Origin: Scyliorhinus canicula
Taxonomy: Eukaryota
Assembly: GCF_902713615.1 (NCBI RefSeq)
Contig: NC_052154.1
Location: 80,951,072-81,015,071 of the forward strand
Direction: 5' to 3'
Length of the DNA: 64,000 nucleotides
Shown: piece after piece, positions 1-52,779 of the stretch
Position numbering within the stretch: the stretch's first letter is position 1
Layout: the number at the start of each line of letters is the position of its first letter
Translations under genes and position numbers: made by a program
Notes under the pieces: generated by a model
Told to the model about the DNA's origin: nothing
The model's database searches: none
What the model saw: the letters and a program-made list of their open reading frames with translations, nothing else

Positions 1-2789
1 GGAGAGATCATGGAGAGCATTAGCTTCATGCAGACGGGGAAGGCGCCGGGACCGGACGGATTCCCGGCGGACTTCTACAAAAAATTCGCTACAGCGCTGG
101 CCCCGCACCTGCGGGAGATGTTCACAGACTCGCTAGCTAGGGGCACACTGCCACCCACGTTAGCACAGGCCTCAATCTCGCTGATACCTAAGAAAGACAA
201 AGACCCAACGGAATGTGGGTCATACAGACCCATATCCCTGCTGAACGCAGACGCCAAAATACTGGCCAAAATCCTAGCCAAAAGGCTAGAAGACTGTGTA
301 CCTGAGGTGGTCACAGAGGACCAGACGGGCTTCGTCAAAGTTAGACAGCTTACCGCGAACATCAGGCGCCTGCGGAACGTGATAATGACCCCCTCCGGGG
401 AGAGAACACAAGAGGTGATCGTCTCCCTGGACGCAGAAAAGGCCTTCGACAGAGTCGAATGGAAATACCTCATAGAGGTACTGGAGCGGTTCGGGCTTGG
501 AACAGGGTTCACCGCTTGGGTAAAGCTCCTATACAACGCTCCCATGGTGAGTGTACGGACCAACAATACCAACTCCCAATACTTCCAGCTGCACAGGGGC
601 ACCAGACAAGGATGCCCACTGTCCCCGCTGCTGTTCGCACTAGCAATCGAACCGCTAGCAATCGCGCTCAGGGCAGCAAAAAATTGGAGGGGGATCCGAA
701 GGGGAGGTAGAGAGCACAGAGTCTCACTCTATGCGGATGATCTGCTCCTCTATATCTCGGACCCACAAAGCAGCATGGACGGAATCATAGCGCTCCTGAA
801 AGAGTTTGGAGCCTTCTCGGGCTACAAACTCAACATGAGCAAAAGTGAGATCTTCCCAGTACACCCGCAAGGGGGGGGGGGGGGGGGGGGGGGGCAGCGC
901 TAAAGGGCCTGCCGTTCAAACAAGCCCGAAATAAATTCCGCTACCTGGGGATCCAAATAGCCCATGACTGGAAAGGGGTCCACAAATGGAACCTCACCAG
1001 CCTGACGGAGGAAGTTAAAAAGGACCTGCAAAGATGGAACACACTCCCGCTCTCCCTCGCGGGGAGAGTCCAGACGATCAAAATGAACGTACTGCCAAGG
1101 TTCCTTTTCCTGTTTAGATCCATTCCGATCTACATCCCCAAGGCCTTTTTCAAAGCGCTGGACAAACATATCATGGCGTTCGTATGGGGGGGTAAAAATG
1201 CTAGGATCCCAAAGAAGGTCATACAAAAAACAAAATCCAGGGGGGGGCTAGCCCTCCCGAATCTACAATTCTACCACTGGGCGGCAACAGCCGAGCGAGT
1301 AAGGGGATGGATCCAGGAGCCAGAAGCCGAGTGGGTGCGTGCGGAGGAGGCCTCCTGCATGGGAACCTCCCTCCGGGCCCTCGCCACGGCAGCACTCCCA
1401 TCCCCACCCAAAAAACACTCCACCAGCCCAGTGGTGACAGCCACCCTCCAATCCTGGAACCAACTGCGGCAGCAATTTGGCCTGTACAAAATGTCGGACA
1501 AGGCTCCCATCTGCAACAACCATAGGTTCAAACCAGCACTGACCGACGCCACCTTCAAAAGGTGGAGGCAGGACGGGGGGACACTGACAGTCAGGGACCT
1601 ATACACGGACGACAGGATCGCAACACTGGACGAACTGACAGAGAAATTTCAGCTAGCTGGGGGGAACGAGCTACGGTACCTGCAGCTCAAAAACTTCCTA
1701 CGAAAGGAGACAAGGATGTACCCACAACCGCCACGCCAGACACTATTGGAAGACCTACTGGACACAAGTATCCTAGAGAAAGGGAACTGTAGTGACATGT
1801 ATGACCGACTGGTAGACAGGGACGACACCGTACTGGACGCAACAAGAAGGAAATGGGAGGACGACCTGGGGATGGAGATAGGGTGGGGACTCTGGAGCGA
1901 AGCACTGCATAGGGTCAACTCCACCTCCACGTGCGCAAGGCTCAGCCTGACGCAACTAAAAGTGGTACATAGAGCCCACTTAACGAGAAACCGTATGAGT
2001 AGGTTCTTCCCGGATGTGAGCGGTGCCAGAGAGGCCCGGCCAACCACGCCCACATGTTCTGGTTTTGCCCCAGACTTGTGGAGTACTGGACAGCCTTCTT
2101 CGAGGCTATGTCCAAAGTGGTGGGGGTGAGGGTGGAGCCATGCCCGATAGTGGCGGTCTTCGGGGTTTCAGACCAGCCAGATCTATTCCTGGGGAGGAGG
2201 GCGGACGCCCTTGCCTTTGCCTCCCTGATTGCCCGCCGTAGAATCCTGTTTGGCTGGCGGTCAGCAGCACCCCCAGAGCTGCAGACTGGCTGTCCGACCT
2301 CTCGGAATCTCTCCAAATGGAGAAAATCAAATTCGCCATCCGAGGGTCGGACGACGGCTTCCACAGAACGTGGGAGCCATTCATGCAACTGTTCCGGGAC
2401 CTGTTTGTGGCCAACGTACATGAGGAAGAATAGTCGGGTGGCCAAGAACCGGGGGAAAATGGGCGGGAATCGGGGGAAGGTAGCCAGGGGGAGGGGGGAG
2501 GGGGGGGGGGGGCTACGGGCTCGGTATGGGGGTTTGATGGCAAGCCAAGGCCCAAAACCAAACTATAAATAAATGCCTATAAACATGTGCCTCGGCCATA
2601 TTGGGGAATGTAAAATATGTATGCTGGCTAAAGGGGGCGGCCACAATTATTGTTATGAAGATGCTTACCTGTAAATATTCATGTAAAAAAATTTTGTGTT
2701 TTCCTTTTTTTTTTCTCTCTCTCTAATAACTTGTAATTTGTCATATATAAAATATGAAAACTCAATAAAAAAACATTTATAAAAAAAAA
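1..2789 (+). mobile_element. L1/Tx1-clade LINE, 3' part (ORF2 RT and C-terminal region, 3'UTR, poly-A); 5' end outside window
   Basis: ORF 10..903 has LINE RT motifs (GKAPGPDGF, YRPISLLN, GTRQGCPLSP, LYADD). It continues after a G-run frameshift in ORF 1083..2129 and later frames. AATAAA at about 2764 precedes the A-tail at 2781-2789. Confidence 0.95.
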
Positions 2790-3387
2790 GAAATGGATGT
2801 TTGGGCAATGTACGTTTAAGAAAATGAGCAGCTCATATTACTGAAGTGATGTCAGAGGGTGGGGGTAGCTGAGTTGAGCTCACTTCTGCTTTTAGTTTCA
2901 GTTTGAGAGAGCAGCTGAAAAGTGCCTTGCTGGTTTGCGGAGAGTTGCATGAAGAAAAATAGCTTGGTGTGTCTGTGTTTGCAGTAAGCTGGATCTGCTG
3001 TGATCCCTGCCAGGAAAGACTATCTCTGAATCATTTGGGTGATTTAAACTCATAATAGTAATGTCTTTAACCGGATGTGTTTCTGTTTCAAGGTGTTAAG
3101 TCTTTTGGAGGTTTGAAGGAACATTTTGAGGGATTATTTAGTGTTGTATTATTTTCGGGGTTATCTTTGAAGTAAAGGGTGTTAAGGGATCCAATGTTTA
3201 TTTAAAAAGGGTAAGTTGAATTCATGGAATAAACATTGTTTTGTGTTTAAAAACCCACATGTCCATAATTGTAATACCACACCTGGAGACCAAGCCGTGT
3301 GCTTCAAAAGCAACAATACATTAAAGGGAGAGGTTGGTTGAACTCCATGATACATTTTGGGGTTCTGAAAACTCCGCTCCCATAACA
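2788..3387 (+). repeat. Gypsy 5' LTR (first ~20 bp displaced by the L1 insertion)
   Basis: Matches the 3' LTR from aagaaatggatgtttggg onward and ends CCCATAACA at 3387. It is followed by ttgggggttc, a degenerate tRNA-Pro-like PBS. Confidence 0.92.
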
Positions 3388-3503: not shown

Positions 3504-4990
3504 ATGGCTCTTTCAGAGGCTCAGATGTTTTTCGGGTGAAGAATGTCACACGCAGTACCTTATGGATAGAGACGAAACGCAGACTGTTAGATTCGGCAAA
3601 AACATTGCAGTTAACATTACCTGACAAAATGCGAAAAGATGAGGTAATTATGGTGGTTGTTAAGCATTTAATGTTGCCTGAGATAGAGTCTGACTCATTG
3701 GAAATGGCACAAATTCAGTTGCAAATTAAACAAATGGAACATGAGAAAGAATTAAAGTGGCTTGAATACGACAGAGAGAGAGAGAGATGAAAAAGAAAGA
3801 GAGGGGGGGGGGGGAGAGAGAGAGGAAAAAGAAAAGGAGAGAGAAGAGAGGAGAAAAGAAAGAATAGCCCTAGCAGAACAGAAAGAAAACGAAAGGGAGA
3901 TAAAGATCATGGGAATAGATAAAGAGAGGGAGTTTGAACTTCAGGAAATGGCCATGAAACGTGAAAGTCAATTATAATTGGCAGGCATAAAGTTGGATGA
4001 TAGTGATGAGGATAGTGAGAAGGAGCGCCATAGTCGAAGGCTTGGTGGGAATCTATTTAAATATGTCCAAGCATTGCCAAGGTTTGACGAGAAGGAAGTG
4101 GAAGCCTTTTTCATTTCATTTGAGAAGGTAGCTAAACAAACGAAATGGCTACAGGACATGCGGGTATTACCGATTCAAACAAAGCTGGTAGGTAGAGCCA
4201 GTGAAGTGTTTGCATCACTACCGGAGGAGGTATCTAGAACGTATGAGGAGGTGAAGAAATCCATCTTAAGTGCATATGAGCTAGTGCCTGAAGTTTATAG
4301 ACAACGGTTTAGAAATTTAAGGAAATAATTTGGTCTTACATACATGGAGTTTGAAAGGCTCAAACAGAGTAATTTTGATAGGTGGATAAGAGTTTTGAAA
4401 ATAGACCAAACGTATGAAGCTCTCAGAGAAATTATACGTCTGGAGGAGTTTAAAAATTAAATTCCTGATGTAGTGAGAACTTATGTGTAAGAACAGAGGG
4501 TTAAAACTGCGAGATTAGCAGCAGAAATGGCAGATGATTATGAAATAGTTCATAAATCAAAGATTGGTTTCCGATATCAGTTTCAGCCGGTGAGGGATCG
4601 AAATTGGGGACATGGGAAATACCCAAGTGGTAAACGTAAAGGTGATCTGATGGGAGACAATAAAGAGAGTGTACCTCAGATTAAAAAATAAATCCAGAAG
4701 GGTAGAAAAGAAATGAAAAGTTTCAAATGTTTTCACTGTAATAAACTAGGCCATGTAAAGTCACAGTGTTGGTGGTTGAAGAAAAGCACTGGGAAGGCTG
4801 ATGTGGTAAAACAGGAAAAGACAGTGGGATGTGTTGGAGTGATAAAGGAAAGCCCAAGGGAAGCGAAGGAGCTGCAAATGATTGCACAACCTGTTCAAGA
4901 AGTAATTGTTAAGAACGTGCCAGATGTCTTTAAAGAATTTAATTGTGTGGGTAAAGTTTACTCATGTGTATCAGGAGGAGCAAGTAAATA
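3504..4990 (+). pseudogene. Gypsy gag remnant with SCAN-like segment and CCHC knuckle
   Basis: YELVPEVYRQRFR is followed by FDRWIRVLKIDQTYEALREIIRLEEFKN*IPDVVRTYV*EQ (about 4350-4540) and CFHCNKLGHVKSQC (ORF 4713..4991). Several stops and frameshifts. Confidence 0.85.
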
Positions 4991-4994
4991 AGTC

Positions 4995-5230
4995 ACAATT
5001 TTAAAAGATACAGGGACTAGTCAATCTTCAATGGTAAGAGATGAGTAATTATGTAGTTTGGGAAGAATGTTGCCAGAAAAGGTGGTGATATGTGGAATTC
5101 AGAGTGAGAGGTGTAGCGTTCCATTATATAATGGAAAGTCCAGTGAAGAGTGGTGAAGTGGTAGTAGGAGTAATAGAGAAATTATCTTGTCCAGGAATAC
5201 AGTTTATCTTGGGTAATGATATAGCTGGAT
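4995..5230 (+). pseudogene. Gypsy aspartic protease remnant
   Basis: ILKDTGTSQS, with D-T-G at 5007-5015. Confidence 0.75.
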
Positions 5231-5598
5231 CGTAGGTGGGAGTGATGCCTACTGTGGTTGATAGGCCAGCGGAACATCAGACAACTGAAGGGTTGAAAGA
5301 CGAATATCCTGGGATTTTTCCGGATTGTGTAGTAACCCGGTGGCAAAGTCACAGGTTAAGACAAGAGGAGAAATCAAAGAGTGAAGGTGAAGTTGAAGTG
5401 CAATTATCAGAAACGTTTTTTGATTAGATAGTTGAAAAAGAACAAGAACAGGTGGAGGATGAGGCAGATATTTTCAGTTCAGGAAAATTGGTGGAGTTAC
5501 AACAGAAAGATGTAGAAATAAAACGGATATATCAGAAAGCACTTACGGAAGAGGAATCTGAGTGAATACCAGAGTGTTATTACCGTGAAAGTGATGTC

Positions 5599-6630
5599 TT
5601 GATGAGAAAATGGAGACGTGTACATATGCAGGCGGATGAAAAGTGGGCAGACGTTCATCAAGTAGTATGGCCGGTAGGGTATAGAAAGGAGGTGTTGCGA
5701 GTTCAACACGAGGTACCAATGGGAGGTCATTTGGGAATCAGGAAAACTCAAGCTAAAATCCAGAAACATTTTTATTGGCCTGGACAACATAAAGATGTAG
5801 TTATATTTGGTCAATCATGTCACACATGTCAAGTGATAGGGAAACCTCAAGCAGTGATAAAACCAGCGCCCTTAATACCCATTCCAGCATTTGAGGAACC
5901 TTTTACGAGGATCCTAATTGATTGTGTGGGGCCGCATCCTAAAACAAAATGTGGGAATTAATATATTTTGACTATAATGGTTGTGTCTACTAGATTGCCA
6001 GATGCCATTCCAGTACATAATATTACAGCTAAAAGGATTGTGGAGGAGTTACATGAATTCTTTGCCAGATATGGACTACCGACAGAAATTCAATCGGATC
6101 AAGGATCAAATTTTACTTCAAAGTTATTCAAAGAAGTTATGGATTGTTTAGGAATAAAACAATTTAAATCAACTGCGTATCATCCAGAATCGCAGGGAGG
6201 TTTGGAAAGGTGGCATCAGACATTAAAGACAATGTTCAGGGCGTGTTGTCAAGATTATCCAGAGGATTGGGATAAAGGAATTCTATTCGTATTGTTTGCA
6301 ATTAGGGATACACCTAATGAGTCTACCAAATTTAGTCCTTTTGAACTAATTTTTGATCATGAGGTAAAAGGACCATTTAAGTTGATTAAAGAAAAATTGG
6401 TGGGTGAGAAATCGGAAATTACACTATTGGATTACGTGTCAAATTTTAGGGAATGATTAAATAGAGTAGGTGAATTGGCTGGACGACACTTGAAAGTTGC
6501 ACAAAATGTGATGAAACGGGTAGTGGACAAGAAATCCAAAGTTCGTAGTTTTGTCAGTGGGGATAAAGTTTTAGTGTTGTTACCAGTGGTAGGTGAGCCT
6601 TTAAAAGCTAGGTTTTGTGGACCGTATTAG
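5599..6630 (+). pseudogene. Gypsy integrase remnant, upstream of RT
   Basis: HEVPMGGHLG...SCHTCQ zinc finger; ILIDCVG / IQSDQGSNF / ESQGGLERWH catalytic D,D,E; ARFCGPY (GPY/F) at about 6610-6628. Confidence 0.92.
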
Positions 6631-7053
6631 ATGGAAATGAAATTAAGTGAGGTGAATTATGTGGTTAAAAACACCAGATAGAACGAAGACTCACCGAGTG
6701 TGTTATGTGAATATGCTTAAAAGGTACTTTGTAAGGGAAGGGGAGAAAAAGGAAGTTTTAATGATTCTAACTCAAAGTGACGAACCAAATCCAGATGACT
6801 GTGAATTTGACATACCTTAAATAAAATTGGAAAATGAGGATGTTCATAAAAATTGGGATAAATTGGTGAGTTACCTTCCAGAGGAAAAACGCACTGACCT
6901 GAAAGACTTATTGATATCACATGGGCAAGTTTGTAGAGATAAATTGGGAAGTACTAAAGTGGCTATACATGACGTAGATGTGGGAAATGCTGTTCCTATC
7001 AAACAATATCCATATAAACTTAATCCTTTGAACTTGGCACAGGTTAACAGAGA

Positions 7054-48224: not shown

Positions 48225-49750
48225 TTCGTAGGCCGACGCCAAAATCGGGAAACACGATTGGCTGACAATTGGTTCTGATGCCGAAATCGCAGCGGGCACT
48301 GATTTCATGCCAAATCGCAATTCTCCGTCGCATCGACAGCGGCCTTAATGCATTCCAGAATGCCTGTACAGTAAATGCTGTTTACATAACATTAGTGGGC
48401 CTGACCCGGTATTCTCCGAGGCCTCCGTCATTCAATGCATTCGATGGGCAGAATTCCCGATGGCGCACTTCACTTGTGTTTTTAACAATCGTGAAACCGG
48501 CGTTGTGGCTGATGACGGAGAGAGAGACGGTAAGACATAGAGGGGTGCGAATGTGGGCTATTGGGCCGGACAGTGGCCGGGCTGAATGATGTGGGAGGGC
48601 CCTGCCAGGGTCAGGGGGTGAAGGCGGAATGGGCAGTGTAGCCAGGGTGACCCCGATGAAACTGGGGCAGTGTCCATGAACGGACCACCATTACCAGGGC
48701 CTGCAAGGCAGCCTTCTTTCAGCGTACCCCACTGACTGCCCACCTTGGCCTTAGCTCTGCAGAGTGACACCGGACGTATGGGTACCCTCCCCCTCCACAC
48801 CACACCCAGCTTCTGCCATACTATGCACCAACCAACCGTCACCTGCTGGCAGGGCATTAGTTGGTCAACCAAGGACAATGAACAATGTAGCCCCTAAAGG
48901 GTCGCCAGGCAGGGACGGTGAAGCATACTGCTGGCATGGGCAGCACCAGCGGCTGGTACCCCTGGCAGCAGGGATCGGCACCAGGGCCACAGTTCCCAAA
49001 GTGCCGGGCACTGATGGGGCGAGGGGTTCGGGGATGGGGTGGGAGACATGACGGAGCACAGTCGGCAGAGCCAGCTGGGGATAGGATGTAGTCCATTGGA
49101 CTTGGTAGGGCACGGGAATACGCACTATGTTAACATGTTGGCATTTCACCCCCTGCAAAAATCGGATATTGGAATTCAACCACAATGAAATCAAATGAAA
49201 ATCGCTTATTATCACAAGTAGGCTTCAGTGAAGGTACTGTGAAAAGCCCCTAGTCGCCACATTCCGGCACCTGTTCGGGGAGGCTGGTAAGGAAATTGAA
49301 CCGTGCTGCTGGCCTGCTTGGTCTGCTTTAAAAGCCAGCGATTTAGCCGAGTGCGCTAAGGTGGCCTTCCTGTTAATTGCCTCAGCCCTGGGGATGCTCT
49401 ATGTCTGTACAAGCTGGCATTGGTCGAGGAGGAGAAAGCTGCAGCAGCAGAGCATGCAACAGGGGAGCGTACAGGATTGGAGCCTGCCCCAGAGGAACAG
49501 GAGGCAGACACCAAGATGGACAGATAGCATCCCAACAGGCGGAGGAAGAGGTGCCAAGGAGGCACCACATGAGGCCTCATATGTACCCGAAGAGCTTGAC
49601 ATTCGAGAACCTGCCAGACCAGGCATGTCGTTGAAGATTCCAGAACAGGGGAACAGTGCGATATATCTACCTGATCCTGGCACATCTGCCACCGTGGGTG
49701 AATGGGGGAGGACACCCGCTCCTGGAGCCATCAAGGTGATGGTTTGCCCT
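48225..49750 (+). mobile_element. PIF/Harbinger-like DNA transposon remnant (transposase N-terminal fragment at about 49565-49750)
   Basis: RPHMYPKSLTFENLPDQACR*RFQNRGTVRYIYLILAHL...GGGHPL resembles HARBI1-type transposase N-termini; a SINE is inserted at about 49190-49358. Confidence 0.55.
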
Positions 49751-49751
49751 G

Positions 49752-51330
49752 AGTGATTGTGCAAGACAATGAAATGTATATTCGGGAAATTAAACAAGAC
49801 GTTAAACAATAAACTGAGGGAAATGAAGAAACAAATCAAGCAGGATTAGATTTTGTGAAAATACTGGACGAGTATGCAAAAATGGTTAACCAAGAAAAGG
49901 TTCATGATTCAGGCCAGAATCAGAATTGAACTCTTTGCAGTATTTATGTAAATTATGATGTGGAGATGCCGGTGTTGGACTGGAGTGAGCACAGTAAGGA
50001 GTCTTACAATACCAGGTTAAAGTCCAGCAGGTTTGTTTCAATTTCAAACACTAGCTTTCTGAGCACTGCTCCTTCCTCAGGTGAATGAAATGGTATGTTC
50101 CAGAAAAATATATACAGACAAAGTCAAAGATGCAAGACAATGCTTTGAATGCGAGCCTTTGCAGTTAATTTAAGACTTAATTACCTGCAAATGCTCGCAT
50201 TCAAAGCATTGTCTTGCATCTTTGACTTTGTCTATATATATGTTTCTGGAACATACCTCTTCATTCACCTGAGGAAAGGGAAGTGCTCCAAATGCTAGTC
50301 TTTGAAACAAACCTGTTAAACTTTGATCTGGTGTTGTAAGACTTCTTTATGGAAATTGTTTGACAGAGGAAAAATGTGGAAGAATGTAATAAAGGATTGG
50401 TGCCATCATGGATTAGCAATGAGCAGTTACAAAACTTGACCAATAAGGACATTCACCCGAAAATTACAGGTGACAACTTAGACAGCTAACTAAAGTTTGG
50501 TTCAATTAAGATTGTAAAGTGATCAGTGGAAAAGCAATAGGGATGGTACTAGGGATTCCCATCATCCCACCTGACGAGTCCGGGGTGTGGGTCTTTGATT
50601 TCCATACAGGACCATACAGCACGATTTGCGAATGGGACACAAATGTACGCCCCTATGTGTGGTAGAACAGAATAAAACATGAGCAGGAACTATGCTGGAC
50701 AAATACAAACAAGCCAGAAAAATTATAATCTGTCCATATCCAATAAACCCCTCTGATCAAGCCAAGTGTGGATTTAAGTCAAATGAGAATGTCACTTCTA
50801 CCCCAGAGGTTAGAACCCAAAAAACAGATATCACAAACATCGTACTTGTAGGTAAAGAAAAATATTGTGTTACCACCTCAGTGAGAAGCTAACGGTATGG
50901 GACCAGCATATGTCCGTTGAGAACCTCAGGTTTTGCATAAAACCTCAGGTTTCAGCTAGAATTGTACAATTGAGTTAGTTGATACTTATAAACGAAAACA
51001 AGAGTGAATTGATGTCAAGGAGGAAATTAATTCGGAATTTAAGGATTATTGGGGAAAATATGTGACAAATATAGAACTGTTGCCAGAAATGTTAATAAAC
51101 GCCTTAAATATGCTTATATAACACACCAGCGGGTAGTACAATAAGTAAGTGTAATCAAAACCGACATAACTGAAATGAAGGAAACTAATTGGTAGGATGA
51201 TATTTGGAACTGGAGAACAAATATACAGCTTTACCCATGGAAATTAATTGTATCCAATTTATAATAATAACCATGCTTATTATTATATTGTTTGAAACTT
51301 ATTATAATTATGTCAAAGTACTGGAAAGTT
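49752..51330 (+). pseudogene. Decayed envelope/class I fusion glycoprotein gene (paramyxovirus-F-like), split by a Penelope-like insertion
   Basis: Across frameshifts: helical HR1-like block, GLVPSWISNEQL, GMVLGIPII, Cys-rich block (ORF 50692..50892), HR2-like block, W-rich NW*DDIWNW, then hydrophobic FIIITMLIIILF. Confidence 0.6.
49949..50346. mobile_element. Penelope-like inverted-repeat insertion (about 350-bp hairpin)
   Basis: Arms about 49995-50170 and 50177-50349 are near-perfect reverse complements; TTATG at 49944-49948 and 50347-50351. The family call rests on my recognition of a shark Penelope pseudo-LTR, not on coding sequence. Confidence 0.7.
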
Positions 51331-51556
51331 AAGATGGAAAAGAAATTAGACATGGAGTTGTGTTTGGAAAAACGGGAACGATTAATGGAAAAATGATATG
51401 CCAATGAATAATTATATATACATACATTGCTGCAATTGCTTTACGTAGTTATGATCAATTGTAACACAGCTTGGATTTGAATATCTACCTGATGGAAGAT
51501 CCGGCTAATGGTGTTTGTAACCCACTTCGCTCAATTTAGTGGATCAAATGGAGGAA

Positions 51557-52112
51557 TGAGGCCAATGGCTCACATTGTGTCGTGAAGCATGAGGGGAAAA
51601 GAGGCTAACAGTGGACATGAAGTTAAAAGAAAACAAGAGATTTGTGTGCACAAACTACAACTTAGTAGAATGAATACCGTGGGAACAGACAGGATAACTT
51701 GCAACTGGACTTTTCACTGAAAATACTTTGTTTTGAAACAGCAAAAACATGGTTCTTTCAAAGATGAATTAGGCACATGTGCTACAGGATTGTTTATATG
51801 AATGAACTATCAACCAAGAACTGAAATCATAGAAATAAAAAGTTTGGAGATTTCAGCAACGATAAGACTGGGATCAACATTCGCAAGACAAGACTTAAAA
51901 TTTGGAAACTCACCGCGCACGCACTCCAGAGCCAGCCTGGCCAGGTTCTCGCTATCGGGTAAGAATTTTAGTTCAAATTGTGTGTCTTGAAAATTACGTT
52001 ACTGTTTAAATGACAGCGAGTTCAGTGAGTTTAAATGTGTTCAATACAATAATAAATACTAATAATTGTGATTCAAGTTATATTAAAATTAAGCTGACTG
52101 TGATGACTTACA
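51557..52112 (+). repeat. Putative 3' LTR of the env-bearing element
   Basis: Purine tract aaatggaggaa (51546-51556) then TG; AATAAA at about 52050; candidate CA end at 52111-52112; no second copy in the window. Confidence 0.35.
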
Positions 52113-52779
52113 TGTCTGTTTCGTCAGTTGAAGCCAGCAGAGGGCAGCAACACTATTCGCACCACTTGCCTGATGAATGCAGCTTCAACGGCACTTATAA
52201 AGCCCCACATTGTCTAAGATAAAGGGCCCACTTGATTGGCACCACATCCACCACAGTCAAAACTTACTCTCTCCACCACCGGCAGCAGTGTGTACCATCT
52301 ACAAAATGCATTGCAACCACTCACCAAGTCTCAATTGACAACACCTTCGAAACCATTGACACCTGCTGGGTAGAAGATTCATGGAAACAGGACATCATTT
52401 AATTGTCCCTCCAAACCACACACCACCTTGACTTGGAAACATATCGCACGTCTCCTTGCAGCCGCTGGGTCAAATGCTGGAGCTCCCTTCATACTACTAA
52501 CGTGGCTGTCCCTACAACACATAGGCTACAAGGAAGTGGCTCACGAACACTTTCTTCAAGGGAAATTAGGGATGGACAGTAATTTTTTGCCTAGCTAGCG
52601 AAGCCCATATCCCAGGAATTAACACATTTTTAAAATGCTGGTCCATTGTGTATTTGTGGCTTACTTGTGGCTCCTTTTAAGGTTTGCAGTAATAATGCTC
52701 CCGCTGGGGTTCACTAACTGAAACATAGCTCCATAAAAACATACGACTTCGAGGCAGCAATAAGACATTTTGCCCTGCC

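What the first reader, a model, noticed from the sequence alone, without database searches (positions are those of the whole stretch)
49752..52112. Fossil paramyxovirus-F-like envelope gene with PPT/LTR: possible lokiretrovirus-like endogenous element
Seen in sequence: removing the Penelope-like insert (TTATG duplication) and reading across frameshifts gives, in order, an amphipathic helix, TLCSIYGNC, GLVPSWISNEQLQNL, GMVLGIPII, P-LCVVEQNKT*AGTMLDK[Y]KQARKIII-C-PYPINPSDQAK-C-GFKSNEN[V]-x24-C-VTTS...ICP..FC, an HR2-like helix, a Trp-rich membrane-proximal patch and a TM. If the bracketed Y and V are decayed Cys, the spacing is C-x8-C-x11-C-x7-C-x24-C. That parallels the paramyxovirus F1 cysteine block as I recall it for NDV F (x8, x14, x7, x23), and a Pro sits 18 residues upstream in both. 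A purine tract and LTR-like segment follow. Established knowledge: lokiretrovirus Env and errantivirus/baculovirus F are homologous to paramyxo/pneumovirus F. Inference: this is the env-3'LTR end of such an element. As I recall, lokiretroviruses were described mainly from lampreys, bony fishes, amphibians and reptiles, so a shark lineage would be notable. No pol is adjacent.
Basis: partly seen in the sequence, partly recalled or inferred. Interest (0 to 1): 0.75.

Follow-up and report, generated by a model that had tools for sequence, protein, structure and literature searches.

The report
Shark retrovirus fossil, measles-type envelope
This is the broken envelope gene and right-hand end of an old, many-copy retrovirus in a likely shark genome; its envelope family is predicted to fold like the fusion protein of measles- and RSV-type viruses, but its polymerase groups with frog and coelacanth retroviral fossils and not with lokiretroviruses.

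Summary
Window 49762-52152 is a dead env–PPT–3'LTR fragment of a multi-copy endogenous retrovirus. A 403-bp Penelope-like insert interrupts it, and a Harbinger-like repeat borders its 5' end. A family profile maps colinearly across it. Sibling copies add an RxKR site, a fusion peptide and gag-pol between LTRs. A full-length bamboo-shark homolog folds like paramyxo/pneumovirus F (Foldseek E 3e-10), so the F-type reading is right. The lokiretrovirus reading is not. The linked RT lacks the Loki motif, RT+Loki monophyly is rejected (AU p=0.017), and the RT groups with frog and coelacanth ERV Pols in the class III/snakehead-like grade. A sister relation to snakehead virus itself is also rejected, and no foamy RT was in the tree. 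This copy had no reads in four RNA runs. A young, env-less sister family has near-identical LTRs and is transcribed. F-type Env is already known in foamy viruses, Loki and errantiviruses. I found no paper on this pairing, but the scan reported it twice before in other shark genomes.

The parts
49362..49752 (+). Unrelated high-copy Harbinger-like (DDE_Tnp_4) transposon fragment at the 5' break of the provirus remnant; not part of the element
   Evidence: 3813 first-look candidates, 40 scored, the 38 unlinked ones at 73-79%; the 3 copies tested each hit DDE_Tnp_4, E 1e-5 to 1e-17
49762..49948 (+). env remnant, piece 1: C-terminal part of heptad repeat A, up to the first conserved F1 cysteine. 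Signal peptide, F2-like part, furin site and fusion peptide are missing from this copy
   Evidence: sibling homology starts at 49762; profile positions 107-167; 2 stops
49949..50351 (.). 403-bp Penelope-like insertion forming a long inverted repeat, with a 6-bp duplication TTTATG
   Evidence: absent from 10 of 10 sibling loci, present in the 98.5% duplicate L002
50352..50934 (+). env remnant, piece 2: F1 core including the cysteine-rich block (domains I/II by analogy with F), broken by stops and frame changes
   Evidence: profile positions 173 to about 360; cysteine columns conserved across the family
50935..51396 (+). env remnant, piece 3: heptad repeat B, Trp-rich membrane-proximal patch, transmembrane segment and short tail, with stops
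   Evidence: profile up to position 514 of 523; translation
51546..51556 (+). Purine-rich tract directly before the LTR (likely PPT; one pyrimidine)
   Evidence: a similar tract precedes the 3' LTR of the young sister family
51557..52152 (+). 3' LTR, 596 bp, TG...CA
   Evidence: 54 matches from 40 scored candidates; shared boundaries at about 51557 and 52152 with unrelated flanks in many solo copies, and paired copies in L098 and L099

Best explanation
This is a 5'-truncated, broken env-PPT-3'LTR remnant of an old multi-copy endogenous retrovirus, whose envelope family is predicted to be a paramyxo/pneumovirus-F-type class I fusion protein and whose polymerase likely belongs to the class III / snakehead-like (clade Huo) grade rather than to lokiretroviruses. 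Shown: sibling copies have the layout LTR-gag-RT-tether-RNase H-IN-env-LTR (protease is seen in the young sister family), and env reads signal-like start, extra N-terminal domain, F2-like part, RxKR, fusion peptide, heptad A, cysteine-rich core, heptad B, Trp patch, TM. Inferred from F biology: the ancestral virus made a furin-cleaved trimeric Env that inserted its fusion peptide into the target membrane and zipped the two heptads together to fuse membranes, with the N-terminal domain as a likely receptor-binding module. After integration this copy lost its 5' part, took up a Penelope-like insert, accumulated stops and frameshifts, and was later duplicated with its surroundings. It makes no Env. 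A related lineage without env is still retrotransposing in this genome (inferred from near-identical LTRs and full-length transcription).
For: Repeat family and colinear profile. R-x-K/R-R before the fusion peptide in 7 of 12 junctions printed, including L099 of the window's own subfamily. In L099, RT, tether and RNase H lie upstream of an env 73-78% identical to the window, between two LTR copies. A profile search gave 50 homologs, among them full-length Envs; 8 of 10 looked up carry names, 6 shark and 2 frog. The Atlas places the ectodomain of the bamboo-shark homolog with PF00523 F0 (score 0.94, 10 of 10 best hits in one clan). Its AF2 model has block pLDDT mostly 70-95 over residues 180-260 and 340-600. 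All 44 listed PDB Foldseek rows are paramyxo/pneumovirus F, best E 2.8e-10. VIA-align: NDV F Z 10.3 (rmsd 19.3, 366 aligned), measles F Z 9.1 (rmsd 10.0, 283), foamy Env Z 7.7 (rmsd 5.4, 269). RT tree: the 9 genome rows form a clade (100/99), nested with frog and coelacanth Pols (92/91), away from Loki-motif rows; AU p=0.017 against RT+Loki. The window copy had 0 reads in 4 of 4 RNA runs in which the sister family had 935-3151 reads.
Against: The fold was obtained on a homolog (GCC29952.1; profile E 4e-42), not on the window copy. TM-scores are low (0.28 by query, 0.46 by target) and the Z values are middling for a helical protein. No family member hit Pfam PF00523 directly; the only F-related hit is Baculo_F at E 0.0011 in 1 of 22 proteins. 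A partial ORF first pointed to class III fusogens (recognition below threshold), and its model was poor. RT placement is only partly resolved: RT+snakehead virus as exclusive sisters is rejected (p=0.008), the wider group including it is merely not rejected (p=0.14), and no foamy RT was in the trees. The RT of the window's own subfamily (L099) is a short, long-branch fragment, and its two LTRs are only 68% alike, so env-pol linkage there rests on one old locus.
Confidence: 0.82

Rival explanations
1. It is a lokiretrovirus, extending that lineage to cartilaginous fish.
For: F-type Env with RxKR, fusion peptide, coiled coil and TM matches the Loki description. The layout resembles published Loki Env by eye. 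Dual RNase H is present. The closest Pol homologs are auto-named 'NYNRIN-like', and Loki IN is reported close to CGIN1.
Against: No RCPFG motif in any of the 9 family RT pieces. Lower identity to Loki-motif RTs than to frog, coelacanth or snakehead RTs in all 5 pieces compared. AU p=0.017. PMC7947760 found Loki in 0 of 6 chondrichthyan genomes. Loki Envs seen in the supplement lack the extra N-terminal domain of about 130-170 residues.
Confidence: 0.04
2. It is a foamy-like ERV of cartilaginous fish (the CmiFLERV/XtrFLERV group), and the F-like Env is the known spumavirus Env fold.
For: Best PDB matches of RT (164 bits, against 121 for the next retrovirus) and IN (107 bits) are foamy virus proteins. 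Foamy Env is F-like (PMC11468914 abstract) and ranks 4-5. PMC5512871 reports shark and Xenopus FLERVs clustering together, as these Pols do with Xenopus proteins.
Against: No spumavirus protease or Gag Pfam hit; Gag has a CCHC knuckle, and pol follows gag in frame after one TGA, unlike foamy viruses as I recall them. Env is about 720-750 aa, with no Foamy_virus_ENV hit, and scores better against paramyxovirus F. RT motifs match snakehead virus better than the FLERVs printed in the supplement, by eye. No snakehead or class III Pol appeared among the PDB hits, so foamy may be the best hit only by default.
Confidence: 0.1
3. The env is a class III fusogen (rhabdovirus G / herpes gB / chuvirus type) or has no relation to F.
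For: The Atlas search with a partial ORF returned Monjiviricetes_fusion and rhabdovirus G clusters at 0.90-0.94.
Against: That query scored below the recognition threshold. The full ectodomain gave PF00523, all listed PDB hits are F, and the furin site, fusion peptide and two heptads are class I features.
Confidence: 0.02

Closest known systems
Snakehead retrovirus (SnRV) and clade Huo / class III ERVs, incl. elephant-shark CmiERV lineage I (PMC4422223, part 1 of 2 read; PMC6001957, passages)
   Same: RT motifs are shared, with 48% identity for the young family. SnRV-related ERVs with a downstream env are already reported in a chondrichthyan. PMC11089739 (passages) says most cartilaginous-fish ERV RTs are clade III.
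   Different: Not the sister of SnRV itself (AU p=0.008); the nearest Pols are unnamed frog and coelacanth ERVs (56-59%). The passages read do not describe the Env fold. No SnRV Env was recognised among the 50 profile hits (10 were looked up), and its fold was not tested.
Lokiretroviruses (PMC7947760; parts 1-2 of 4 and supplement passages read)
   Same: F-type Env with RxKR, fusion peptide, coiled coil and TM; dual RNase H.
   Different: Different RT clade and motif; an extra N-terminal Env domain in most members; no separate smc gene seen.
Foamy viruses and foamy-like ERVs (PMC11468914 abstract and passages; PMC5512871 passages)
   Same: Env core related to paramyxo/pneumovirus F; RT and IN are the closest solved structures.
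   Different: Shorter Env, CCHC Gag, retropepsin-type protease hit, pol in frame after a stop.
F-type errantivirus and baculovirus F envelopes (bioRxiv 10.1101/2023.10.26.564294; abstract and part 1 of section 6 read)
   Same: Same fold class (BFVD hits to baculovirus F, E 3e-11).
   Different: Those are Ty3/gypsy elements of invertebrates; here pol is retroviral, with tether plus RNase H.

Membership tests
Lokiretrovirus | RT falls in the Loki clade, sister to all other retroviruses | tested here: not met
   Trees; AU p=0.017. Loki rows were labelled by the RCPFG[YF] motif seen in the paper's supplement, not by the published sequences themselves.
Lokiretrovirus | Env similar to paramyxo/pneumovirus F, with RxKR, fusion peptide, coiled coil and TM | tested here: met
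   (on siblings and a homolog)
Lokiretrovirus | Tether plus second RNase H in Pol | tested here: met
   RT_RNaseH_2 and RNase_H both hit; shared by all retroviruses, so not diagnostic
Lokiretrovirus | Integrase closest to CGIN1/NYNRIN | tested here: inconclusive
   Only automatic 'NYNRIN-like' names on homologs; no IN tree was built
Class I F-type fusogen (paramyxo/pneumo/foamy/baculo F fold) | F2/F1 core fold with domains I-III and two heptads | tested here: met
   AF2 model of homolog P0150; Foldseek E 2.8e-10; VIA Z 10.3, rmsd 19.3 over 366 residues
Class I F-type fusogen (paramyxo/pneumo/foamy/baculo F fold) | Trimeric, cleavage-activated membrane fusion | not testable with these tools
   inferred from the motif and the fold
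Clade Huo / class III (snakehead-like) ERVs | RT groups with SnRV and ERV-L/S-like elements, apart from gamma/epsilon, foamy and Loki | tested here: inconclusive
   Apart from gamma/epsilon-like and Loki rows. Group with SnRV plus frog/coelacanth Pols not rejected (p=0.14); exclusive sisterhood with SnRV rejected (p=0.008). No foamy rows.
Foamy viruses / FLERVs | RT inside the spumavirus clade | not tested
   No foamy RT was available as a stored sequence; only PDB scores and comparison by eye
Foamy viruses / FLERVs | Spuma-type Gag without CCHC knuckle, Spuma_A9 protease, separately expressed pol (features recalled, not from a call) | tested here: not met
   zf-CCHC and RVP-type hits, no Spuma families; in-frame TGA at the gag-pol junction in 4 of 4 young copies
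Gamma/epsilon-type Env | TLV_coat-type TM with immunosuppressive domain and CX6CC | tested here: not met
   No TLV_coat hit in the Pfam scans of env pieces and homologs; the fold is F-type
LTR retroelement | TG...CA LTR after a PPT, with paired and solo copies | tested here: met

The most novel reading that the evidence does not exclude
A compact F-type Env with an exchangeable N-terminal module (Ig-like in some lineages, absent in others) is the native envelope of a shark-frog branch of class III retroviruses. Together with foamy viruses, Loki and errantiviruses, this would make the F fold the ancestral retroviral envelope, and gamma- and beta-type Envs derived.
Probability: 0.35. Interest if true: 0.7.

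Novelty: new variant of a known kind. Interest (0 to 1): 0.42.

Why it matters
The locus itself is an ordinary dead fossil. The family matters because it fills a gap. F-type envelopes are reported on both sides of the retroviral root (Loki, errantiviruses) and in foamy viruses, and this family places one on a separate basal retrovirus branch of sharks and frogs. That favours ancient inheritance over repeated capture from negative-strand viruses. Natural full-length frames in bamboo shark and frogs allow a direct structural test and may include co-opted genes. The genome also holds old env-bearing copies beside a young, transcribed env-less family, a clean case for studying the shift from infection to retrotransposition.

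Tried and rejected
Pfam and PDB sequence searches of window pieces gave nothing useful; the beta-propeller hits are sums of repeat matches. The search for homologous proteins with the window peptide found 0 of 38 candidates, and with a sibling ORF 1 of 424. Profile searches of PDB with A1 and A2 gave no significant hit. The first fold, on a 272-aa fragment, had mean pLDDT 51 and no meaningful structural match; a missing match there is no evidence. The class III reading was dropped. The N-terminal 177 residues of the second model are under pLDDT 50, so the Ig-like module was not tested structurally. No indexed RNA holder was listed for the window stretch. The integrase at window 5.5-6.7 kb was considered as this element's pol and rejected: it is a separate gypsy-type element about 43 kb away. 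Tree rows: one search used 44 of the 120 listed Pol homologs, 9 genome pieces and one gypsy outgroup; one search used 25 homologs and 5 genome pieces; redundant gamma-like and Loki-motif rows were dropped by hand. Literature searches for the combination returned 0, 3, 1 and 5 papers (2 of the 5 listed), none describing it in the listings or passages seen; subscription papers are not covered. PMC9972966 (cartilaginous-fish endogenous foamy virus) is not held and may bear on the foamy rival. The Loki supplement is cut in the library and held no CmiFLERV sequence that I could find. CmiERV-I is given only as DNA in its supplement and was not compared. bioRxiv supplements are closed.

Full report
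Observation. The stretch is an interspersed repeat. DNA search gave 56 matches from 40 scored candidates: the window itself, a 99% duplicate 153 kb away, and others at 67-87%. The cysteine-block peptide gave 114 matches among 150 scored candidates. The window's homology to sibling copies starts at 49762. Upstream lies an unrelated Harbinger-like transposon fragment. A 403-bp insert with long inverted arms and a 6-bp flanking duplication splits the gene. None of 10 sibling loci has it and 6 are exactly empty there. The same repeat sits beside a GIY-YIG frame elsewhere, so it is likely Penelope-derived. A profile of siblings and homologs covers the window colinearly from position 107 to 514 of 523, through 12 stop codons. 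The LTR is 51557-52152, TG...CA, after a purine tract, with many solo copies sharing both ends and paired copies in L098 and L099.

The element. Longer stretches around sibling envs show gag, RT, tether, RNase H and integrase upstream. L099 belongs to the window's own subfamily (env 73-78% identical) and holds RT, tether and RNase H pieces and env between two LTR copies. Those LTRs are only 68% alike, so the locus is very old or rearranged. Siblings keep the part lost from the window: a signal-like start, an extra N-terminal domain, R-x-K/R-R in 7 of 12 junctions printed, a fusion peptide and heptad A. The window holds no pol of this family; its integrase hit at 5.7-6.3 kb belongs to a gypsy-type element.

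The envelope. Sequence alone did not reach F. No member hit PF00523, and only 1 of 22 homologs hit Baculo_F weakly. A partial ORF even pointed to class III fusogens, and its model was uninformative. A profile search of 1.84 billion proteins found 50 homologs, including natural full-length frames. Of 10 looked up, 6 are from sharks, 2 from frogs and 2 unnamed. For the bamboo-shark protein (profile E 4e-42), the Atlas returned F0/PF00523 first, with 10 of 10 best hits in one clan. The AlphaFold model is confident over most of the core. All 44 listed PDB matches are paramyxo- or pneumovirus F, best E 2.8e-10. VIA-align ranks NDV F (Z 10.3, rmsd 19.3, 366 residues), measles F (9.1) and Ghanaian virus F (8.4) first, then foamy Env (7.8 and 7.7). 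BFVD adds baculovirus F and lispivirus glycoproteins. TM-scores are low, probably because the model mixes conformations, and the result is transferred from a homolog. The three lines agree. That the protein was furin-cleaved, trimeric and fusogenic is inferred from F biology.

The polymerase. The env-linked RT found a young, abundant sister family with a stop-free Pol frame, which gave a clean query. Pol has a retropepsin-type protease, RT, tether, RNase H and integrase; Gag has a CCHC knuckle. Loki RTs in the PMC7947760 supplement mostly carry RCPFG; this family carries LPQGF[H/Q]N, like the snakehead virus entry. One homolog, P0020, matches the printed snakehead RT by eye. Identities for the young RT are 59% and 56% to frog and coelacanth Pols, 48% to snakehead virus and 36-40% to Loki-motif proteins. 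In the tree of 54 rows the 9 genome RTs form one clade (100/99) among frog and coelacanth Pols (92/91), away from Loki-motif and gamma/epsilon-like rows. AU tests on 30 rows reject RT+Loki (p=0.017) and also RT+snakehead alone (p=0.008), but not the wider group with snakehead (p=0.14); the last two groups were named after the first tree was seen. No foamy RT could be included, and the best PDB hits are foamy proteins, so a foamy-like placement is weakened by Gag and Pol organisation but not tested by tree.

Activity. The window's env-LTR had 0 reads in four RNA runs. The same runs gave 935-3151 reads along the young env-less family, which shows that related DNA is represented, though most reads are 95-99% alike. 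The young family has no env match between pol and LTR, and its LTR pairs are 99.4-100% identical.

Comparison with what is known. PMC7947760 (parts 1-2 of 4 and supplement passages) defines Loki by RT position and F-like Env and found none in 6 chondrichthyan genomes. PMC4422223 (part 1 of 2) reports a snakehead-related ERV lineage with env in the elephant shark. PMC6001957 and PMC11089739 (passages) place such elements in clade Huo / class III and call them the majority in cartilaginous fish. PMC11468914 (abstract and passages) shows that foamy Env is F-like. PMC5512871 (passages) groups shark and Xenopus foamy-like pols, with no env detected for the shark ones. The errantivirus preprint (abstract and part 1 of section 6) shows F-type env across invertebrate gypsy elements. 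Four searches for the present combination found no description; subscription papers and PMC9972966 were out of reach. Two earlier notes of this scan reached the same reading on other shark genomes; I had recorded my reading before seeing them, and they are not independent evidence.

Verdict. It works like a Loki or foamy envelope, but it is not a lokiretrovirus. The copy is a dead remnant; the family is a new variant of a known kind. Interest 0.42.

Noticed in passing
L131-L138 (e.g. G000:C1:164222185-164231977): Young env-less sister family: Gag of about 580 aa, an in-frame TGA, a Pol frame of about 1408 codons, about 1.6 kb with no env match, and LTRs of about 948 bp that are 99.4-100% identical in 4 of 4 copies. 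About 50 of 150 scored RT matches have the full stop-free frame (counted by hand). It is transcribed end to end in 4 of 4 RNA runs, mostly in one direction, with a poly(A) end inside the LTR; most reads are 95-99% alike, so other copies or another population may contribute.
   Followed up: partly
G000:C9:81153388-81158150 (L002): The whole region, including the insert and flanks, is duplicated 153 kb downstream at 98.5% identity; likely a recent segmental duplication.
   Followed up: partly
P0150, P0155, P0173, P0147, P0183, L087:7613-8218: The domain in front of the F2-like part differs between lineages. It is Ig-like by UniRef name in bamboo shark, has a weak V-set hit (E 0.045) in P0173, is a different Cys-rich stretch in this genome, and is absent in P0183.
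   Followed up: partly
window about 4400-6900 (+): Decayed gypsy-type element with gag knuckle, protease and then integrase (Gmr1-like order, name recalled); unrelated to the env.
   Followed up: partly
L081:8081-8959, L082:8090-8995: A second, more distant env subfamily (25-29% to the others) with long stop-free frames, by eye close to the Pristiophorus proteins.
   Followed up: no
BFVD hits: Walleye epsilonretrovirus Envs (WEHV-1 E 4e-9, WDSV E 1e-7) and a fish filovirus glycoprotein score well against the model, with low TM-scores; this may reflect long helices or a wider F-like core.
   Followed up: no
P0152: A predicted protein joins an F-box domain to a C-terminal piece of this Env; probably a gene-model artefact or exonisation.
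   Followed up: no
L004, L005, L007, L009 (C15, 85.9-86.2 Mb): Four near-identical old copies lie about 100 kb apart, suggesting a tandem segmental array.
   Followed up: no
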